IMG/VR virus record: IMGVR_UViG_2917849834_000006
Coordinates: 1-39,408 of that record
Length of the DNA stretch: 39,408 bases
Reading direction: 5' to 3' (one strand)
From: a virus
Taxonomy: Duplodnaviria; Heunggongvirae; Uroviricota; Caudoviricetes
Shown here piece after piece: positions 5,411-15,797 of this stretch (the stretch's first letter is position 1; each line of letters opens with the position of its first letter). The position numbers and the translations under genes are program-made. The notes beneath the pieces were generated by a model. That model was not told the origin of the DNA, searched no databases, and saw nothing but the letters and a program-made list of their open reading frames with translations.

Positions 5411-6085
5411 TTAGGTCTTTATTTTGTATCTTCTTGGTTTTCCCGAGAAAATCACTGTACCAATTATAGAGCAATTACCGTTGATCTTAATGTAAGGTTC
5501 AGGCCAGTTTGGGTTTAATGCTTTGAGGTAACGCTGTGTTCCATCTTCTATCAACCGCTTGAAGGTGGTTTCGCCTGTATCGTGCATCAATGCAATAACG
5601 TCGTCACCGTGGCAGGCAGGGACTTCAGGATCAACAAAAATCATGTCTCCTGGGCGGTACTCATCAATCATTGAATCACCAATCACCCGCAAGATATAAG
5701 TCATTTCACCACAGGGTACAGGGCAGGGATAAGTTTCTGCTGTGCTCAAATCAACCTCAGAATAACCAACTTCTTTCCATGCTCCGGCCTGTACCCATGA
5801 TATGACAGGGACTAACGTTATTTGTTTGTTAGTGATTGAAACATCAGGTTTTTTTGTGATGTTCGTTGTCTGGTGTTCTTGATCAAGCCATCCGACAGGC
5901 AGGTCGAAACATTTTTCGATGTGCCGTGCCATGCTGTCACCGATATTTTTAGTTGCACCATCTCCCATAAACCTGCTGGTCTGGGTTGGCTCGCGATCAA
6001 TCATGGTGGCAAAGGAAGAATTCCCGCCAACACCATCTCTCAGTTTTCTGGCGTTAGACCGCCGGATGTCATGGACTGTTTTCAT
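5411..6085 (-). CDS. cI-like repressor with C-terminal S24 (LexA-like) autopeptidase domain
   Basis: 224 aa; N-terminal HTH region and C-terminal VIGDSMIDEYRPGDMIFVDPE S24 signature; divergent from the cro-like gene. Confidence 0.85.
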   Translation of the reverse strand: MKTVHDIRRSNARKLRDGVGGNSSFATMIDREPTQTSRFMGDGATKNIGDSMARHIEKCFDLPVGWLDQEHQTTNITKKPDVSITNKQITLVPVISWVQAGAWKEVGYSEVDLSTAETYPCPVPCGEMTYILRVIGDSMIDEYRPGDMIFVDPEVPACHGDDVIALMHDTGETTFKRLIEDGTQRYLKALNPNWPEPYIKINGNCSIIGTVIFSGKPRRYKIKT

Positions 6086-6100
6086 AATGAAATTAAAACC

Positions 6101-6169
6101 CTTGTACCGTTAAGGTACAAGTATCTTGAAGGTTCATTTTAATCATGTAATATGTACATCGGAGGTACA
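6101..6169. promoter_or_regulatory. OR-like operator/promoter region with two 17-bp operators (TGTACC-N5-GGTACA at 6103-6119; TGTACA-N5-GGTACA at 6153-6169)
   Basis: Perfect palindrome CTTGTACCGTTAAGGTACAAG at 6101-6121; second near-identical site overlapping the cro RBS; candidate rightward promoter TTGAAG (6126-6131), 16 nt, TAATAT (6148-6153). Confidence 0.6.
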
Positions 6170-6175
6170 TATTGT

Positions 6176-6376
6176 ATGAAAGCGTATTGGGACTCTTTAA
6201 CCAAAGAACAGCAGGGCGAGTTGGCCGGAAAAGTTGGCTCAACACCAGGCTACTTACGGCTGGTTTTCAATGGTTATAAAAAAGCCAGTTTTGTGCTGGC
6301 TAAAAAAATTGAGCAATGCACGTCAGGTGCAATTACGAAATCTGACTTAAGACCGGATATCTATCCGAAAGATTAA
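6176..6376 (+). CDS. Cro-like / YdaS-like HTH regulator
   Basis: Small basic protein divergent from cI; likely start is the ATG at 6176 after GGAGG, rather than the track start at 6152. Confidence 0.65.
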   Translation: MKAYWDSLTKEQQGELAGKVGSTPGYLRLVFNGYKKASFVLAKKIEQCTSGAITKSDLRPDIYPKD

Positions 6377-6407: not shown

Positions 6408-6971
6408 ATGAGGCTAACCGTGGGTAAGCATCACTGGAAAGTAGAAAAACAGCCTGAGTGGTACGTGAAAGCTGTCAGAAAAACTATCGCGGCATTGCCG
6501 GGGGGTTACGCTGAAGCTGCTGACTGGCTGGATGTAACAGAGAACGCATTATTTAACCGCCTTCGTGCCGATGGCGATCAGATTTTCCCGCTGGGATGGG
6601 CAATGATTTTACAGCGCGCGGCTGGCACTCACTACATTGCGGATGCTGTCGCACAGTCTGCTGGTGGGGTGTTTGTATCGCTTCCTGAAATTGAGGAAGT
6701 AGAGAACGCCGATATAAACCAGCGCCTGCTGGAAGTCATCGAACAGATCGGGAGTTACTCAAAGCAGATTCGTTCGGCAATCGAAGATGGGGTAGTGGAG
6801 CCACACGAGCAGACAGCAATTAATGATGAGTTGTATCTGTCAATTTCGAAGCTCCAGGAGCATGCAGCACTGGTCTACAAAATCTTTTGCGCTCCAGAAA
6901 AGAGTGACGCCCGCGAGTGTGCAGCTCCGGGCGTCGTGGCGTTTTGTGTCTGTGGAGAAACTAACGCATGA
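6408..6971 (+). CDS. CII-like regulatory protein (CP76/YdaT-like), tentative
   Basis: 187-aa ORF directly after cro; family assignment is from position and general resemblance only. Confidence 0.4.
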   Translation: MRLTVGKHHWKVEKQPEWYVKAVRKTIAALPGGYAEAADWLDVTENALFNRLRADGDQIFPLGWAMILQRAAGTHYIADAVAQSAGGVFVSLPEIEEVENADINQRLLEVIEQIGSYSKQIRSAIEDGVVEPHEQTAINDELYLSISKLQEHAALVYKIFCAPEKSDARECAAPGVVAFCVCGETNA

Positions 6972-7804
6972 ACAGTTTAACGGCAAATAATCGTTTGTCG
7001 CAACAGCTGGTGGTCAGTGTCGCTGAACACCTGTTGTTACGGCATGAATGCAGATTACCAAATCACCTGGCTGTAAGTAACCACAGAGAACTTTACCTGA
7101 CTGTGGGGGGCGAGTTGTGCAGGAACTTAACCGCTGGTTTCGTGACGGAAGAGGGCTTTATGTCCATGTTATTCGTTGGGAGCCAGAAACACAGCGCGTT
7201 ATCTATCTTCGCAAAGACTACCCGCATGAGTGCTTTAGTCCTTTGTGGAAATTCAGGCGTGATTTTGTTGAGTGTGAAGGACCACCAGCACATTGATTCT
7301 GCCATTCTGGGACGTTACACTGTTCAGGCACCTTATAAAGCGGGTGCCGGGATTGGCGTCCTGGAATTGCATACGGCGACAATTGGCGCGTTAGCGTCTT
7401 TTTTGTTGCTACAACTCAGCTATACCCAAATTATGGTGGGCTGGGTGGGGGCACCGAAAGGTGCGCCGGTTTCCGTATGCGCCGGTTACGCCAACCCTGC
7501 TCAGTTCACCACCAGCGAAATTGGCGTTTCCGGTGGTGGAAGTTATCCATTGCATACGGAGGCTGCCATCATGGCTACTGTCCCAGCCCTCTCTCGTCTG
7601 AATGATGACGACTTACATAAACTCAGTTATGTAACAACTGCACTACGTGCTCTGCGCAAGGTAACTCTTTCGGATCCGCAGGCGCATCAGGTTCTGGTAG
7701 AAACCCTTCTTAACTTGCAGGCTGAACGTATTCGTCTGGCGGATAAGGCTAATTTTCATATTCACCGTCTCCTTAATATCAGCGGAGGGCATCGTCATGC
7801 TTAA
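6968..7804 (+). CDS. Hypothetical protein (early right operon)
   Basis: 278-aa ORF with overlapping stop/start coupling; an alternative-frame protein-like ORF at about 7078-7260 leaves the reading frame in this segment uncertain. Confidence 0.4.
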   Translation: MNSLTANNRLSQQLVVSVAEHLLLRHECRLPNHLAVSNHRELYLTVGGELCRNLTAGFVTEEGFMSMLFVGSQKHSALSIFAKTTRMSALVLCGNSGVILLSVKDHQHIDSAILGRYTVQAPYKAGAGIGVLELHTATIGALASFLLLQLSYTQIMVGWVGAPKGAPVSVCAGYANPAQFTTSEIGVSGGGSYPLHTEAAIMATVPALSRLNDDDLHKLSYVTTALRALRKVTLSDPQAHQVLVETLLNLQAERIRLADKANFHIHRLLNISGGHRHA

Positions 7805-8033
7805 TCCGTTGATTCTCAATATTTGCCGTTTGCTTCAGCGTAAAAAAACATCAATTCCTACAGTTGGGCAGTGGTACACCACGCCTGCAGGGCATGTTCT
7901 ACGTGTTAGCCTGGTTGACCGTGAATGTCAGAAGGTGATTTGTGAACCGCTGGGCCGTAATTACCGCGTCAGTATGCCGCTTATAGCCTTTCGCTCCGGA
8001 AAAAACATGAAGCATCTCGGAGGTGCAGCATGA
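7797..8033 (+). CDS. Hypothetical protein
   Basis: 78-aa ORF, ATGCTTAA overlap with the upstream gene. Confidence 0.4.
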   Translation: MLNPLILNICRLLQRKKTSIPTVGQWYTTPAGHVLRVSLVDRECQKVICEPLGRNYRVSMPLIAFRSGKNMKHLGGAA

Positions 8034-8848
8034 GTATGGAGCTGATGGTTAAAGCGATGAAAATTCGAGTGGGTAATCCATTGCGAAAACTGGTTCTGAT
8101 CAAGCTGGCTGATAATGCCAGCGATCAGGGTGAGTGCTGGCCCAGCTACCAGCATATTGCTGACCAGTGCGAGATTAGCAAACGTTCTGTGATGAATCAT
8201 ATTGCGGCCCTTTGTGAGTCCGGGCTGGTAAAAAAAGTCACCCGGAAAGGTGAAAAAGGTAACTCAAGTAATATCTATCTCCTTCATCTGGATGGTGCAG
8301 GAGATTCACTAGGGGGTAGTGCAAATAATTCACTATCTGGTGCAGCAAATTCACCAGGTAGTGCAGGAGTTGCACCAGGGGGTAGTGCAGGAGATTCACC
8401 CAGAACCAGTCACTCTTTTGAACCAGTCAAAGAATCAGTCAATGAACCAATAGCTTTTGGTGCATCTGCTGATGAGTCTGTGCGAGTTCGTTCAAACCGA
8501 CCGGAATACTCTCCGGAGTTTGAGCAGGCATGGCTGGCATATCCCAAACGTGCTGGTGGCAATTCAAAATCTGCAGCCTTCAAAGCCTGGAAAGCCCGTT
8601 TGAATGAGGGGGTAAACCCCGAAACCATGCTGGAAGGTGTGAAACGCTACGCGGGCTGGGTATCTGCGATGGGTAACAGTGGCACACAATTTGTGAAACA
8701 GGCTGTCACGTTCTTTGGTCCGGATCGTCATTTCGAAGAATCCTGGGAAGTTCCTGCGGTATCTGCAGCCAGACGCGAGGACCCGTACTTCAAAGCCAGT
8801 TACGACAACGTGGACTACAGCCAGATCCCGGCAGGATTCAGGGGGTGA
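8030..8848 (+). CDS. Replication initiation protein (phage replisome organiser N-terminal HTH domain, O-like)
   Basis: N-terminal KLVLIKLADNASDQGECWPSYQHIADQCEISKRSVMNHIAALCESGLV winged-helix domain; internal G/S/A-rich linker encoded by iteron-like DNA repeats. Confidence 0.65.
   Translation: MSMELMVKAMKIRVGNPLRKLVLIKLADNASDQGECWPSYQHIADQCEISKRSVMNHIAALCESGLVKKVTRKGEKGNSSNIYLLHLDGAGDSLGGSANNSLSGAANSPGSAGVAPGGSAGDSPRTSHSFEPVKESVNEPIAFGASADESVRVRSNRPEYSPEFEQAWLAYPKRAGGNSKSAAFKAWKARLNEGVNPETMLEGVKRYAGWVSAMGNSGTQFVKQAVTFFGPDRHFEESWEVPAVSAARREDPYFKASYDNVDYSQIPAGFRG
8290..8400 (+). repeat. Iteron-like direct repeats inside the replication gene (candidate origin)
   Basis: Five or more copies of (G/A)GTGCA(G/C) with repeated GGTGCAGGAGATTCAC and GGGGGTAGTGCA units. 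Confidence 0.5.
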
Positions 8849-9339
8849 TCATGAGTCTTTTGAATGAAGTTCAGAAATTCATTGAAGCCCATCCGGGGTG
8901 TACTTCCGGAGACATTGCGGATGCTTTTACAGGTTACTCACGGCAGCGCGTTCTGCAGTCAGCAAGCAAGTTACGTCAGAGTGGGCGTGTGGCTCACCGT
9001 TGTGAAGGGGATACACGCAGACATTTCCCGCGCCTGACTGAGAGAGCGCAGGAGCCGGAACCACAACCAGTTCGTGAAACCAGACCTGTGCGCAATTTCT
9101 ATGTCGGCACTAACGATCCACGGGTGATTTTGTGCCTGACCCGCCAGGCTGAAGAACTGGAGTCAAGGGGCTTATACCGTCGTGCTGCAACCGTGTGGAT
9201 GGCGGCATTCCGTGAAAGCCACTCCCAGCCAGAACGAAACAATTTTCTGGCGCGTCGTGAGCGGTGCTTACGGAAAAGCAGCAAGCGCGCTGCATCGGGT
9301 GAAGAGTGGTATCTGTCAGGGAATTACGTGGGGGCTTAA
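8845..9339 (+). CDS. PerC-like transcriptional activator family protein, tentative
   Basis: 164 aa; C-terminal LYRRAATVWMAAFRES… resembles PerC-family proteins common in enterobacterial prophages. Confidence 0.35.
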   Translation: MIMSLLNEVQKFIEAHPGCTSGDIADAFTGYSRQRVLQSASKLRQSGRVAHRCEGDTRRHFPRLTERAQEPEPQPVRETRPVRNFYVGTNDPRVILCLTRQAEELESRGLYRRAATVWMAAFRESHSQPERNNFLARRERCLRKSSKRAASGEEWYLSGNYVGA

Positions 9340-9992
9340 TGAGTAATAAATATTGCCAGGCGCTGGTGGAACTGCGGAACAAACCAGTCCATGAACTGAA
9401 GGAAGTGGGCGATCAGTGGCGCACGCCGGACAACATTTTCTGGGGAATTAACACCCTGTTTGGCCCGTTTGTTCTGGATCTGTTCACTGACGGTGATAAC
9501 GCCAAATGTGCTGCGTATTACACGGCGGAAGACAACGCGCTGGCGCATGACTGGTCAGAACGTCTTGCGGAGCTTAAAGGTGCTGCCTTTGGTAATCCCC
9601 CATACAGCCGCGCCAGTCAGCATGAGGGGCAATACATCACCGGCATGCGTTACATCATGAAACATGCCAGTGCCATGCGTGATAAGGGCGGGCGCTATGT
9701 TTTCCTGATCAAAGCTGCCACCAGCGAAGTGTGGTGGCCGGAAGATGCGGACCATATTGCTTTTATTCGCGGGCGTATTGGTTTTGAACTGCCTGCCTGG
9801 TTTATCCCGAAGGACGAGAAGCAGGTGCCGACAGGAGCGTTCTTCGCTGGTGCTATTGCTGTTTTCGACAAGACCTGGAAGGGACCGGCAATCAGCTACA
9901 TCGGGCGCGATGAACTTGAGGCATGTGGTGAGGCGTTTCTGGCGCAGGTTCGCCAGCAGGCGGAAAAACTGGTCAGGGAGATGGCGGCATGA
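9339..9992 (+). CDS. Phage DNA N6-adenine methyltransferase (Dam family)
   Basis: GNPPY motif (AFGNPPYS); likely start is the ATG at 9339 (TAATG overlap with the upstream stop). Confidence 0.8.
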   Translation: MSNKYCQALVELRNKPVHELKEVGDQWRTPDNIFWGINTLFGPFVLDLFTDGDNAKCAAYYTAEDNALAHDWSERLAELKGAAFGNPPYSRASQHEGQYITGMRYIMKHASAMRDKGGRYVFLIKAATSEVWWPEDADHIAFIRGRIGFELPAWFIPKDEKQVPTGAFFAGAIAVFDKTWKGPAISYIGRDELEACGEAFLAQVRQQAEKLVREMAA

Positions 9993-10315
9993 CGACGTTA
10001 ACTCAATGCCAGCAGCAGGTGCTGGATATGCTGATTTCTTATCAGAAAGAACGTGGCTTCCCGCCAACCAATCAGGAGGTGGCAACCATGCTGGGATACC
10101 GTTCGGTGAATGCAGCGGTGGAGCATCTTCGCTCACTGGAGAAAAAAGGCGTCATCACGATAAAGCGTGGTGTGGCCCGGGGGATAACGCTTCATACCGC
10201 GGTGAAGGACGACGACAGCGAGGCGGTCGAGATTATCCGATCACTGCTTGCCGGTGAGGAAAACGCCAGGCTGCGTGCAGCCTACTGGTTACATGAGAGG
10301 GGCCTGAAAGTATGA
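9989..10315 (+). CDS. LexA-type N-terminal DNA-binding domain protein
   Basis: 108 aa; winged-HTH resembling the LexA DNA-binding domain; no peptidase domain. Confidence 0.5.
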   Translation: MTTLTQCQQQVLDMLISYQKERGFPPTNQEVATMLGYRSVNAAVEHLRSLEKKGVITIKRGVARGITLHTAVKDDDSEAVEIIRSLLAGEENARLRAAYWLHERGLKV

Positions 10316-10701
10316 AGCTGATTCTGCCTTTTCCGCCCAGCGTGAACACGTACTGGCGACACCCCAACAAAGGGGCGTTTGCAGGTAAGAGCCTGATAAG
10401 CGCGGCGGGACGCAAATTCCAGAGCGCGGCGTGTGCAGCAATAGTTGAGCAGTTACGTCGTCTGCCAAAACCAACGTCGGCACCTGCTTCAGTGGAGATC
10501 GTGTTGTTTCCTCCGGATAACCGGATCCGCGATCTGGACAACTATAACAAGGCGCTGTTTGACGCCCTGACCCACGCGGGTGTGTGGGAAGACGACAGTC
10601 AGGTGAAAAGAATGCTGGTGGAGTGGGGACCGGTTATCCCGGAAGGGAAGGTCGAGATCACTATCAGTAAGTACGAGAAAACGGCGGGTGCAGCCGCCTG
10701 A
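10312..10701 (+). CDS. rusA: RusA-type Holliday junction resolvase
   Basis: 129 aa; LPFPPSVNTYWRH…DLDNYNKALFDALTHAGVWEDDSQV matches the RusA family. Confidence 0.9.
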   Translation: MKLILPFPPSVNTYWRHPNKGAFAGKSLISAAGRKFQSAACAAIVEQLRRLPKPTSAPASVEIVLFPPDNRIRDLDNYNKALFDALTHAGVWEDDSQVKRMLVEWGPVIPEGKVEITISKYEKTAGAAA

Positions 10702-15154: not shown

Positions 15155-15236
15155 AGCGGAAAAGGTCTGTGGCACAAACTGATGCTGCCATAATTACAGC
15201 CTGATGACTTGTGGAATGAAACATGTTGAACCTCCT

Positions 15237-15797
15237 TAATTGATGTGATTCGAGTGAGGAAGGCATTCTGTCCTTCTATAGTGTCCAGTAAATCAAACAG
15301 GAAGCTTGTCTCACGTGTGAGACAAGCCTCTCCATTAGCGAGTTGTATTGATTACAACTCTTCAAAGAGTTCATTACTGGGTAGATGAAAATAGTTTCAC
15401 GACGAATGGAGGAGACTATGTCGGTGGCTTCTTCATTGGAGTACATATGCTCCCTCGAACCTCAAAAGCATGCCGAGTTCGCGGCTGCCGCCATACCACG
15501 ACTGACCCGTGTTGAAGCTCCGTAATTGATGTTATTCGAGTGAGGAAGGCATTCTGCCCCCCTATACTGTCCAGTAAATCAAACAGGAAACTTGCCTCAC
15601 GCGTGAGACAAGCCTCTCCCATCAGTGAGTTGTATTGATCTCGACTCTTCAAAGAATTCATTACTGGGTAGATGAAAATAGTTTCACGACGAATGGAGGA
15701 GGCTATGTCGGTAGCTTCTTCATTGGAGTACATATGCCACCACGAACCCCAAAAGCCTGCCGTGTTCGCGGCTGCCGCCATACCACAACTGACCCGT
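15237..15797 (+). repeat. Two diverged tandem copies of a ~286-bp unit (15237-15515 and 15523-15797), each with a long palindrome and an HNH-gene 5' end
   Basis: Direct comparison: about 90% identity between copies; copy 1 holds a 22-codon remnant MLPRTSKACRVRGCRHTTTDPC* (15447-15515), copy 2 holds the intact HNH start. Confidence 0.8.

What the first reader, a model, noticed from the sequence alone, without database searches (positions are those of the whole stretch)
8290..8400. Iteron-like repeats embedded in the replication initiator gene
About 110 bp within the replication gene consists of repeated GGTGCAG-type units, encoding a low-complexity G/S/A linker. Lambdoid origins lie inside the initiator gene as arrays of iterons bound by the initiator itself, so this is the probable origin of replication.
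Basis: partly seen in the sequence, partly recalled or inferred. Interest (0 to 1): 0.4.

Follow-up and report, generated by a model that had tools for sequence, protein, structure and literature searches.

The report
Iteron replication origin inside initiator gene
The repeats are real and are almost certainly the binding sites of the prophage's own replication initiator, lying inside its gene as in phage lambda. It is an expected kind of origin, but it is built on a different initiator family and sits next to a strikingly conserved DNA block of unknown role.

Summary
Observation confirmed. Window 8291-8403 holds five 21/24-bp units with the dyad core GTGCA-N5-TKCAC. The core occurs nowhere else in the 39 kb (0.27 expected). 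The array lies in gene 8030-8848, which is 98% identical to SfV orf39. That gene encodes an HTH_36 winged-helix domain, a disordered linker and a helical C-terminal domain.

Comparative evidence supports selection on the DNA:
- Among 69 non-redundant relatives chosen only by the N-terminal domain, 66 have repeat arrays at this position. Control segments gave 0 of 69 and 1 of 68.
- Spacing is always 21-24 bp, and 34 of 69 loci contain out-of-frame spacings. The same iteron then encodes different peptides.
- The iteron sequence co-varies with the recognition helix.
- N-terminal domain plus iterons swap as one unit onto the same C-terminal domain.
- Copy number ranges from 1 to 9 in near-identical initiators and is usually 5.

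Just downstream, at 8402-8436, lies a block with GAAYCAGTCA repeats. Its synonymous sites are nearly invariant across phages of enterics, Pseudomonas, Shewanella and Aeromonas. It is the local AT maximum, but only about 60% AT.

The gene is not a sequence-level member of the lambda O family, and no helicase loader follows it. No origin is annotated in the SfV record, and none was found described in the papers I could search.

The parts
8030..8848 (+). Replication initiator gene (272 aa; homologue of SfV orf39; 'Eru6'-type HTH protein of Stx phages)
   Evidence: ORF. It is 98% identical in DNA to SfV orf39 and to Stx2c phages. It matches PHROG 270 'replication initiation protein' at 5.5e-88. 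It is 97.8% identical in protein to Stx2a_WGPS2, the Eru6 reference (PMC8951638).
8030..8293 (+). Codes for the N-terminal winged-helix DNA-binding domain (aa 1-88). The predicted recognition helix is aa ~50-62, SKRSVMNHIAAL.
   Evidence: Pfam HTH_36 at 1.9e-12 and DnaD_N at 2.9e-6. The AlphaFold model gives pLDDT 74-94 and an H-H-H-H-E-E topology. The nearest folds are winged helices including the DnaD N-domain 2v79, but none is significant.
8291..8403 (+). Iteron array. Five 23-bp imperfect palindromes at 8291-8313, 8315-8337, 8336-8358, 8357-8379 and 8381-8403, with cores GTGCA-N5-TKCAC at 8295, 8319, 8340, 8361 and 8385. These are the predicted initiator-binding sites.
   Evidence: for the array itself. 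Family-wide arrays. Frame independence. Co-variation with the recognition helix.
8402..8436 (+). Constant origin block AGAACCAGTCACTCTTTTGAACCAGTCAAAGAATC. GAAYCAGTCA 10-mers lie at 8403-8412, 8420-8429 and 8432-8441. It is a candidate unwinding or loading element; its function is inferred, not shown.
   Evidence: Present in 70 of 80 loci chosen by the N-terminal domain only. The commonest third base at synonymous sites has frequency 0.93-1.00, against 0.56 in the winged-helix domain. It is the local AT maximum at 58-61% AT. More than 120 viral contigs carry the exact 26-mer.
8294..8500 (+). Codes for the disordered linker (aa 89-157) that carries the iterons and the block
   Evidence: AlphaFold pLDDT is below 50 for residues 91-157. 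Length and sequence are hypervariable among homologues.
8501..8845 (+). Codes for the C-terminal helical domain (aa ~158-272; motif EYSPEFEQAW..YPKRAGGNSK). It is the presumed partner-recruiting module.
   Evidence: PHROG 26426, 3729 and 1701 ('replication protein', 'DnaD-like helicase loader') match aa 134-272. The same domain sits behind unrelated N-terminal domains that have their own repeats, next to DnaC-like or helicase genes. The model shows helices 162-225 at pLDDT ~59-78.

Best explanation
Window 8291-8436 is most likely the vegetative replication origin of this SfV-like lambdoid prophage, embedded in its initiator gene.

**Proposed mechanism**
1. Rightward early transcription from the cI/cro region expresses the 272-aa initiator.
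2. Dimers of its N-terminal winged-helix domain bind the five dyad-symmetric iterons. The recognition helix is at about aa 50-62, the iteron core is GTGCA-N5-TKCAC, and the iterons are spaced about two helical turns apart. The result would be an O-some-like nucleoprotein complex.
3. This complex distorts the adjacent constant block (8402-8436, GAAYCAGTCA repeats), which is the local AT maximum, and strand opening begins there.
4. The C-terminal domain, tethered by a disordered linker, recruits the helicase. No phage loader or helicase gene follows, so this would presumably be host DnaB with host DnaC.

**Status of each step**
- Shown by sequence and comparison: the repeats are under DNA-level selection, are tied to the specificity of the N-terminal domain, and lie at a fixed distance from a DNA-conserved block.
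- Inferred: binding itself, dimer stoichiometry, the unwinding site, and the helicase route.
For: **The array is specific.** There are five exact core sites, only here, against 0.27 expected.

**The gene is an initiator**. A family member paired with a DnaC-like ATPase lies directly beside the ParMR partition genes of a 28-kb circular Arsenophonus plasmid. It has the same layout of iterons plus GAAYCAGTCA repeats.

**An unbiased family test was positive.** I used 69 non-redundant loci selected by the N-terminal domain alone.
- 66 have repeated 13-mers at 20-26-bp offsets in the 112 nt upstream of the block. The controls gave 0 of 69 (N-terminal coding) and 1 of 68 (C-terminal coding).
- The offsets found are only 21, 22, 23 and 24 bp.
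- 34 of 69 loci include offsets that are not multiples of 3.

**The same iteron is read in different frames.** GTGCAGGAGATTCAC encodes SAGDSP here and VQEIH in L020. The same frame shift between copies is seen in L011, L022, L028, L078, L116 and L121.

**The recognition helix co-varies with the iteron class** (for the additional R56 lineages).
- S[KR]RSV[MI]NH goes with GTGMA-N5-TKCAC.
- Helices with R at position 56 go with GTGAC-N5-GTCAC, in five lineages.
- SK[ST]AVRxH goes with YATGCC-N7-GGCAC.
- DRSTVRKH goes with GTAGGCC..GCAC.
- GRSTVKVH goes with GGGGCAGGAGCTGCCCC.

**N-terminal domain and iterons move as one module.** P0065, P0069 and P0072 carry three different N-terminal/iteron classes joined at the block to the window-type C-terminal domain.

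**The block is under DNA-level constraint.** Arg is AGA in 65 of 65 loci, Ser is AGT in 67 of 67 and TCT in 66 of 66. Replacements such as T to I, P to S and H to N are tolerated. The block is the local AT maximum.

**Literature precedent.**
- Lambda, P22 and phage L origins are iteron arrays inside the initiator gene (PMC8022706; PMC7466680; the P22 record annotates a rep_origin inside gene 18).
- Domesticated, non-initiator HTH_36 proteins (DopC) have no detectable iterons (PMC5509034).
Against: - I found no experiment on this origin or on any family member.
- The flanking element is only about 60% AT. In this window the least stable 40-mer near the array is on the other flank (8250-8289), and the block ranks only in the least stable 7% of 40-mers.
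- There are no DnaA boxes, IHF sites or GATC clusters in or next to the array.
- No helicase or loader gene follows, so the loading route is a guess.
- Near-identical initiators with only 1-2 iterons exist in complete chromosomes (P0030, 64 contigs), and one variant lacks the block (P0040). Function in those prophages is unknown.
- Co-variation counts are not corrected for phylogeny.
Confidence: 0.8

Rival explanations
1. The repeats are a protein-level feature only. A low-complexity G/S/A linker expanded by replication slippage, and the DNA has no cis-acting role.
For: The region encodes a disordered linker with pLDDT below 50. In this window all five units are in frame, with spacings of 24 and 21 bp. 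Copy number varies among near-identical genes, as expected for slippage-prone repeats.
Against: - Half of the relatives (34 of 69) have out-of-frame spacings of 22 or 23 bp.
- Identical iterons encode unrelated peptides.
- The units are palindromic, which a peptide repeat does not require.
- The repeat sequence tracks the recognition helix of the DNA-binding domain rather than any linker property.
- Arrays sit at a fixed distance from a block conserved at the DNA level.
- Domesticated DopC relatives have no detectable iterons (PMC5509034).
Confidence: 0.03
2. The repeats are true initiator-binding sites but serve control, and initiation takes place elsewhere in the genome. Control here could mean autoregulation by roadblock, titration or handcuffing, or incompatibility.
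For: Iterons in plasmids also act in copy-number control. The adjacent element is only moderately AT-rich, and the left flank melts more easily. No DnaA or IHF sites are present.
Against: - No other copy of the core exists in the 39-kb window.
- Tandem-repeat search found no other iteron-like array. The only other large repeat is a 287-bp duplication near the terminase genes.
- In lambda and P22 the same in-gene arrangement is annotated as, or shown to be, the origin.
- The same iteron-plus-block arrangement lies beside the partition genes of a circular Arsenophonus plasmid.
Confidence: 0.1
3. This rival concerns the constant block only. Its DNA conservation reflects its role as the homologous-recombination junction where N-terminal and C-terminal modules are exchanged, maintained by gene conversion rather than by a role in initiation.
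For: Mosaic joints fall at the block. tblastn similarity to relatives with other C-termini ends at aa ~135-143. Recombinants P0065, P0069 and P0072 switch exactly there.
Against: - The block is kept with A/T-ending codons in phages of GC-rich Pseudomonas and in distant hosts that are unlikely to exchange DNA often.
- It is made of direct 10-mer repeats with variable spacing and number, which is typical of protein-binding sites.
- It travels with the N-terminal module and is absent where only the C-terminal domain is shared.
- The two roles are not exclusive.
Confidence: 0.15

Closest known systems
Phage lambda O protein / ori-lambda (also 933W and P27 Stx phages)
   Same: The origin lies in the middle of the initiator gene, in the part coding the linker between the DNA-binding N-terminal domain and the partner-binding C-terminal domain. 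There are 4-6 dyad-symmetric iterons of about 19 bp spaced about two helical turns apart and bound by the N-terminal domain. An adjacent, more AT-rich element follows. The gene lies in the rightward early operon (PMC7466680; PMC8022706).
   Different: No sequence match to the Pfam lambda O-type family was found. The comparison with lambda-O-type P22 gp18 gave E = 3.3 by BLASTP and 22% probability by hhalign. A paper reports that HHpred finds HTH_36 in lambda O, so remote homology is possible (PMC5509034). No P-like loader gene follows here. The flanking element is a sequence-conserved block of GAAYCAGTCA repeats at about 60% AT. From my own recollection, not checked here, the lambda tract is roughly 80% AT.
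Salmonella phages P22 (gene 18) and L: in-gene origins with phage-specific iterons
   Same: Each initiator carries its own iteron type inside its gene. The initiator and its origin are exchanged only together (PMC8022706). The P22 record annotates a rep_origin inside gene 18.
   Different: P22 gp18 is a lambda-O-type protein followed by a DnaB-type helicase gene (gene 12). The window's initiator stands alone. The last P22 iteron (GAATCAGTCAAAC) shares 11 nt with the window's block. The meaning of that match is unknown.
Iteron plasmids (RepA/TrfA/pi type: pPS10, RK2, R6K, F)
   Same: They have tandem initiator-binding sites at spacings of about 22 bp next to an unwinding element that itself contains short repeats. 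Rep proteins can bind one strand of that element sequence-specifically (PMC4081077, abstract seen). Winged-helix domains do the recognition.
   Different: From general knowledge, not tested here: plasmid iterons lie outside the rep gene, are usually asymmetric and bound by monomers of two-winged-helix Rep proteins, and the origins usually carry DnaA boxes. Here there is one winged-helix domain, the sites are palindromic, the array is inside the gene, and there are no DnaA boxes.
DopC (domesticated HTH_36 + DnaT_C protein of Cellvibrionales and Oceanospirillales)
   Same: It has the same N-terminal HTH_36 domain and a lambda-O-like gene position upstream of a helicase-handling partner (PMC5509034).
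   Different: DopC has no detectable iterons and its locus is not an origin. It serves as a natural negative control showing that the repeats accompany origin function.
'Eru6' replication region of Stx phages (reference Stx2a_WGPS2)
   Same: It is the same gene, 97.8% identical in protein. The authors note the HTH_36 motif (PMC8951638).
   Different: That work typed the region by gene content only. It states that nothing is known about the proteins involved in Eru phage replication, and it does not mention an origin or repeats.

Membership tests
Lambda O / ori-lambda type origin | The initiator N-terminal domain belongs to the lambda O protein family by sequence | tested here: not met
   Pfam scans of the whole protein and of aa 1-88 (up to E = 10) list HTH_36, DnaD_N and generic winged helices, with no lambda O-type family. 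BLASTP against lambda-O-type P22 gp18 gave E = 3.3 and hhalign gave 22% probability. The literature claims remote HHpred similarity (PMC5509034), so superfamily-level kinship remains open.
Lambda O / ori-lambda type origin | An array of at least 4 dyad-symmetric iterons of about 19 bp inside the initiator gene, between the regions coding the N- and C-terminal domains | tested here: met
   There are five units at 8291-8403 with spacings of 21 or 24 bp. Arm complementarity is 4-7 of 9, and the array lies in the linker-coding region.
Lambda O / ori-lambda type origin | Iterons are bound by the initiator's own N-terminal domain (specificity pairing) | tested here: inconclusive
   Binding cannot be measured with these tools. 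Indirect support is strong: the recognition helix co-varies with the iteron class, and N-terminal domain and iterons are swapped as one module.
Lambda O / ori-lambda type origin | A strongly AT-rich unwinding tract directly next to the last iteron | tested here: inconclusive
   The adjacent 35-bp block is the local AT maximum across 69 loci but reaches only 58-61% AT. In this window its duplex stability is only in the least stable 7% of 40-mers, and the opposite flank is less stable.
Lambda O / ori-lambda type origin | A partner gene for helicase delivery (P, DnaC-like, or DnaB-like) immediately downstream | tested here: not met
   The downstream genes are PerC-like, Dam, a LexA DNA-binding-domain-only protein, and RusA. 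Other family members do have DnaB, P, or primase-helicase genes.
Lambda O / ori-lambda type origin | The fragment supports initiator-dependent autonomous replication | not testable with these tools
   No experiment was found in the searchable literature.
HTH_36 (PF13730) / DnaD_N-like phage replication initiators (PHROG 270) | A significant match of the N-terminal domain to the family profiles | tested here: met
   HTH_36 scored 44-47 bits against a cut-off of 25. DnaD_N scored 27.8 bits on the isolated domain against a cut-off of 27. PHROG 270 matched at 5.5e-88 over aa 3-271.
Iteron-plasmid Rep (RepA/TrfA type) | A two-winged-helix Rep protein, asymmetric iterons outside the rep gene, and DnaA boxes in the origin | tested here: not met
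   The model shows a single winged-helix domain. No Rep_3-type Pfam hit appeared; only a faint RepL/RP-C signal with E above 0.04. The iterons are palindromic and inside the gene. No DnaA box lies near the array.

The most novel reading that the evidence does not exclude
The constant block (8402-8436, two to four GAAYCAGTCA 10-mers) may be a previously undescribed, sequence-specific origin-core element shared by HTH_36-type initiators of gammaproteobacterial phages and phage-plasmids. It would be read either by a conserved surface of the initiator, for example as single-stranded DNA in the way plasmid Rep proteins read their unwinding-element repeats, or by a conserved host replication factor. 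It would be the site where the host helicase is loaded. That would explain how 'initiator-solo' phages such as SfV and Eru6 Stx phages replicate without their own loader. Together with the helix-iteron pairs, it would give a readable specificity code for a whole initiator family.
Probability: 0.35. Interest if true: 0.6.

Novelty: new variant of a known kind. Interest (0 to 1): 0.45.

Why it matters
- **Prevalence.** This initiator gene is present at 80% or more coverage in 897 of 5,426 complete E. coli genomes. It is the replication gene of SfV-like serotype-converting Shigella phages and of Eru6-type Stx2 phages.
- **A gap in the literature.** For Eru-type phages the literature says nothing is known about the replication proteins (PMC8951638).
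- **A testable origin.** Placing the origin at 8291-8436 gives a concrete fragment to test. Stx production depends on phage replication, according to the discussion in PMC7466680.
- **Material for wider use.** The family-wide pairs of recognition helix and iteron, and the invariant GAAYCAGTCA block, could be used to annotate origins in thousands of prophages and to study how a single-protein phage replicon recruits the host helicase.
- **In itself it is ordinary.** An iteron origin inside an initiator gene is what a phage biologist would expect.

Tried and rejected
- **RNA-level explanation.** The Rfam E-value scan of 7900-8900 gave only a sub-threshold miRNA hit (22 bits against a gathering score of 84). 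No promoter-like sites were found in 7700-9400. Rejected.
- **Host-factor sites.** There are no DnaA boxes, IHF sites or GATC clusters at the array.
- **Extra iterons elsewhere, for handcuffing or autoregulation.** None above chance.
- **Homology to lambda O through P22 gp18.** Not detectable.
- **Solved-structure relatives.** None by sequence or profile. Foldseek returned only generic winged helices at E of 0.02 or higher. The C-terminal domain has no Pfam or NCBIfam family.
- **Literature.** The SfV genome paper (PMID 11889106, PMC134923) and the Weigel and Seitz 2006 review on phage replication modules are not held. I therefore could not check whether they already mention these repeats. Full-text searches for the motif strings found nothing relevant.
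- **Biased sample set aside.** The viral-contig loci were retrieved with the block itself, so they were not used to measure its conservation. The unbiased genome set was used instead.
- I searched the plasmid collection for small plasmids that depend on this gene. Most 38-46-kb hits look like circularised phage genomes. Only the Arsenophonus ParMR plasmid is informative.
Full report
**What the window is.** The 39.4-kb window is an SfV-like lambdoid prophage. Region 7797-9339 is 98-99% identical to Shigella phage SfV (orf38-orf40), to Stx2c-converting phages, and to mEp460, 2H10 and Ayreon. The early-right region reads as follows:
- cI-like S24 repressor, 5411-6085 on the minus strand
- cro-like gene, 6152-6376
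- CII (CP76) gene, 6408-6971
- an 'immunity region' ORF with an Ash domain, 6968-7804
- a 78-aa ORF
- the 272-aa gene at 8030-8848
- PerC-like, Dam, a LexA DNA-binding domain alone, and RusA

The 272-aa gene is SfV orf39 'replication protein'. The SfV record annotates no origin.

**The observation.** Positions 8291-8403 hold five units with the core GTGCA-N5-TKCAC at 8295, 8319, 8340, 8361 and 8385, spaced 24, 21, 21 and 24 bp apart. The core occurs only there in the window, against 0.27 expected, and no shuffle reached the observed count. One-mismatch hits elsewhere are at chance level. Each unit with its flanks is an imperfect 23-bp palindrome, with 4-7 of 9 arm positions complementary. Random 23-mers average 2.3, and 1.2% reach 6 or more. 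The units encode the G/S/A-rich aa 89-124. A second, unlisted repeat follows directly: GAAYCAGTCA at 8403, 8420 and 8432, against 0.09 expected. The real unit is 21/24 bp with a dyad core, not a 7-mer.

**The gene.** Residues 1-88 match Pfam HTH_36 and DnaD_N. The whole protein matches PHROG 270 'replication initiation protein' at 5.5e-88. An AlphaFold model built from 26 homologues shows three parts:
- a confident winged helix at residues 1-88 (pLDDT 74-94)
- a disordered stretch at 91-157 (pLDDT below 50)
- a helical C-terminal domain at 162-225 (pLDDT about 59-78)

The repeats and the following block therefore lie in the DNA that codes a flexible linker. No solved structure is related by sequence. 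Fold matches are generic winged helices, including the DnaD N-domain, and none is significant.

**Are the repeats DNA elements or just a repetitive peptide?** Thirteen homologues from annotated phages of Salmonella, Aeromonas, Vibrio, Stenotrophomonas, Klebsiella, Pectobacterium and E. coli all show 3-5 repeats immediately after the winged-helix domain. The sequences are lineage-specific:
- GTGAC-N5-GTCAC
- TGTGCC-N7-GGCACA
- CTATGC-N9-GCATAG
- GGCAG-GAG-CTGCC

For an unbiased test I fetched 80 loci from bacterial genomes using only the N-terminal 85 aa as the query. The hosts include Pseudomonas, Shewanella, Aeromonas, Marinomonas, Xenorhabdus and enterics. Among the 69 non-redundant loci:
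- 66 have repeated 13-mers at 20-26-bp offsets in the 112 nt upstream of the block. Equal-sized N-terminal and C-terminal coding controls gave 0 of 69 and 1 of 68.
- The offsets are only 21, 22, 23 or 24 bp.
- 34 loci contain offsets that are not multiples of three.

Explicit listing shows the same DNA unit read in two frames within one gene. GTGCAGGAGATTCAC, identical to the window's first and fifth iterons, encodes VQEIH in L020 but SAGDSP here. The same frame shift between copies occurs in L011, L022, L028, L078, L116 and L121. A peptide repeat cannot explain this, whereas a DNA site spaced about two helical turns apart can. By a rough count, 4-5 copies are typical (62 of 69 loci).

**Link to the DNA-binding domain.** The predicted recognition helix (aa ~49-62) co-varies with the repeat class across 51 helix variants (further R56 lineages):

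| Recognition helix | Iteron class |
|---|---|
| S[KR]RSV[MI]NH | GTGMA-N5-TKCAC |
| Arg at position 56 (SKRSVMRH, DKRTAMRH, SKRTAMRA, SERTFMRK, SKRTVIRH) | GTGAC-N5-GTCAC |
| SK[ST]AVRxH | YATGCC-N7-GGCAC |
| DRSTVRKH | GTAGGCC..GCAC |
| GRSTVKVH | GGGGCAGGAGCTGCCCC |

Natural recombinants P0065, P0069 and P0072 carry three different N-terminal domains, each with its matching repeats, joined to the window-type C-terminal domain. This is the pattern expected if the repeats are the N-terminal domain's own binding sites. The counts are not corrected for phylogeny.

**Copy-number variation.** Near-identical initiators (88-99% identity) exist in these lengths:

| Protein length | Units | Note |
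|---|---|---|
| 242 aa | 1 | short metagenome contigs |
| 250 aa | 2 | 64 contigs, including complete chromosomes |
| 272 aa | 5 | by far the largest cluster, 2,852 member sequences |
| 283-302 aa | 7-9 | |

One rare variant (P0040) has lost the last unit and the block. Repeats are never wholly absent from the listed near-identical proteins, so the test does not refute the interpretation.

**The constant block.** Directly after the last iteron, at a fixed distance, lies AGAACCAGTCACTCTTTTGAACCAGTCAAAGAATC (8402-8436).
- In the unbiased set, 70 of 80 loci carry it with at most 6 of 28 mismatches and in the same frame.
- At amino-acid columns conserved in the winged-helix domain, the commonest third base has a mean frequency of 0.56, so synonymous sites there are saturated. 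In the block it is 0.93-1.00: Arg is AGA in 65 of 65, Ser is AGT in 67 of 67 and TCT in 66 of 66.
- Amino-acid changes are tolerated (T to I, P to S, H to N). The constraint is therefore on the DNA.
- The block is conserved over 35 nt and is the local AT maximum, at 58-61% AT against 42-45% in the flanks.
- More than 120 viral contigs contain the exact 26-mer.
- It goes with the N-terminal module. Proteins that share only the C-terminal domain (L216-L218) have their own repeats, such as CCCCTTCGGRAAA four times in Bcep22, but no block.
- The spacing of the 10-mers (17, 14 or 12 bp) and their number both vary.

In this window the block is only moderately unstable, in the least stable 7% of 40-mers, and the left flank at 8250-8289 is less stable. 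Calling the block the unwinding element is therefore an inference. Alternatives are a host-factor site, a single-strand-binding site, or a recombination junction. Mosaic joints do fall at the block.

**Other checks.**
- No Rfam family or promoter-like site explains the region.
- No DnaA boxes, IHF sites or GATC clusters are present.
- A 28-kb circular Arsenophonus plasmid has a family member plus a DnaC-like ATPase directly beside its ParMR partition genes. Its iterons lie in two frames and are followed by GAATCAGTCA-N4-GAACCAGTCA, consistent with a working replicon of this design.

**Comparison with what is known.** The design is that of lambda and P22. The origin lies inside the initiator gene, the iterons are specific to the N-terminal domain, and a more AT-rich element is adjacent (PMC8022706; PMC7466680; the P22 rep_origin feature).

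Membership in the lambda O protein family is not supported by direct tests. One paper reports that HHpred finds HTH_36 in lambda O, and that the domesticated relative DopC has no detectable iterons and is not an origin (PMC5509034).

The differences from lambda are:
- no loader gene downstream
- a sequence-conserved block of direct 10-mers instead of a strongly AT-rich tract
- no detectable sequence kinship to lambda O

The Stx-phage literature types this region as Eru6, notes the HTH_36 motif, and states that nothing is known about Eru replication proteins. It mentions no origin (PMC8951638). I could not read the SfV genome paper or the Weigel and Seitz review, so prior mention of these repeats cannot be excluded.

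**Verdict.** The repeats are real. They are under DNA-level selection and are very probably the initiator's binding sites, and the origin of this prophage very probably lies at 8291-8436 (confidence about 0.8). This is an expected type of element, so as it stands the finding is of moderate interest. Two things go beyond expectation: the family-wide helix-iteron pairing, and the near-invariant GAAYCAGTCA block whose reader is unknown.

Noticed in passing
window 8402-8453: A 35-nt block with GAAYCAGTCA direct repeats follows the iterons. Its DNA, including synonymous sites, is almost invariant across phages of enterics, Pseudomonas, Shewanella, Aeromonas, Vibrio and Stenotrophomonas, whose winged-helix domains have saturated synonymous sites. 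What binds or uses it is unknown.
   Followed up: yes
window 7328-7516 (inside the mechanical ORF 6968-7804): Rfam gathering-level hits to isrK (7328-7404, 61 bits) and C4 antisense RNA (7429-7516, 81 bits) lie inside the 278-aa 'immunity region' ORF, which is SfV orf37 with an Ash domain. This suggests a P1/P7 immI-like antisense-RNA/antirepressor module, and that the long ORF is probably not one protein.
   Followed up: partly
window 15224-15797: A 287-bp tandem duplication (2.0 copies, 90% identical) lies between the lysis genes and the HNH endonuclease/terminase genes. The best-matching phage records align about 327 bp to 614 query bases, suggesting a single copy there.
   Followed up: partly
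window 8845-10701: The initiator gene is followed by a PerC-like (yfdN-like) gene, Dam methylase, a 108-aa protein that is only a LexA DNA-binding domain, and RusA. No helicase, primase or loader gene is present, so this is an 'initiator-solo' replication module. In many complete E. coli genomes, K-12 derivatives such as BW25113 among them, only the last ~76 nt of the initiator gene match, next to yfdN.
   Followed up: partly
L215 (phage P22) 2841-2985: The annotated P22 origin ends its iteron row with GAATCAGTCAAAC. This shares 11 consecutive bases with window 8432-8442, although P22 gp18 is not detectably related to this initiator. It may be chance or a shared element.
   Followed up: no
L218 (Burkholderia phage Bcep22 gp27) and L216 (Stx2a phage 12E129): Initiators with unrelated N-terminal domains but the same C-terminal domain also carry their own tandem repeats in the linker-coding DNA, for example CCCCTTCGGRAAA four times in Bcep22. 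In-gene iterons therefore look general for initiators sharing this C-terminal domain.
   Followed up: partly
L219 (Arsenophonus nasoniae plasmid paNv_CH13) 3782-4561: A 28-kb circular phage-like plasmid has a family member plus a DnaC-like ATPase directly beside its ParMR partition genes. Ten Arsenophonus plasmid records in the collection match the query protein.
   Followed up: partly
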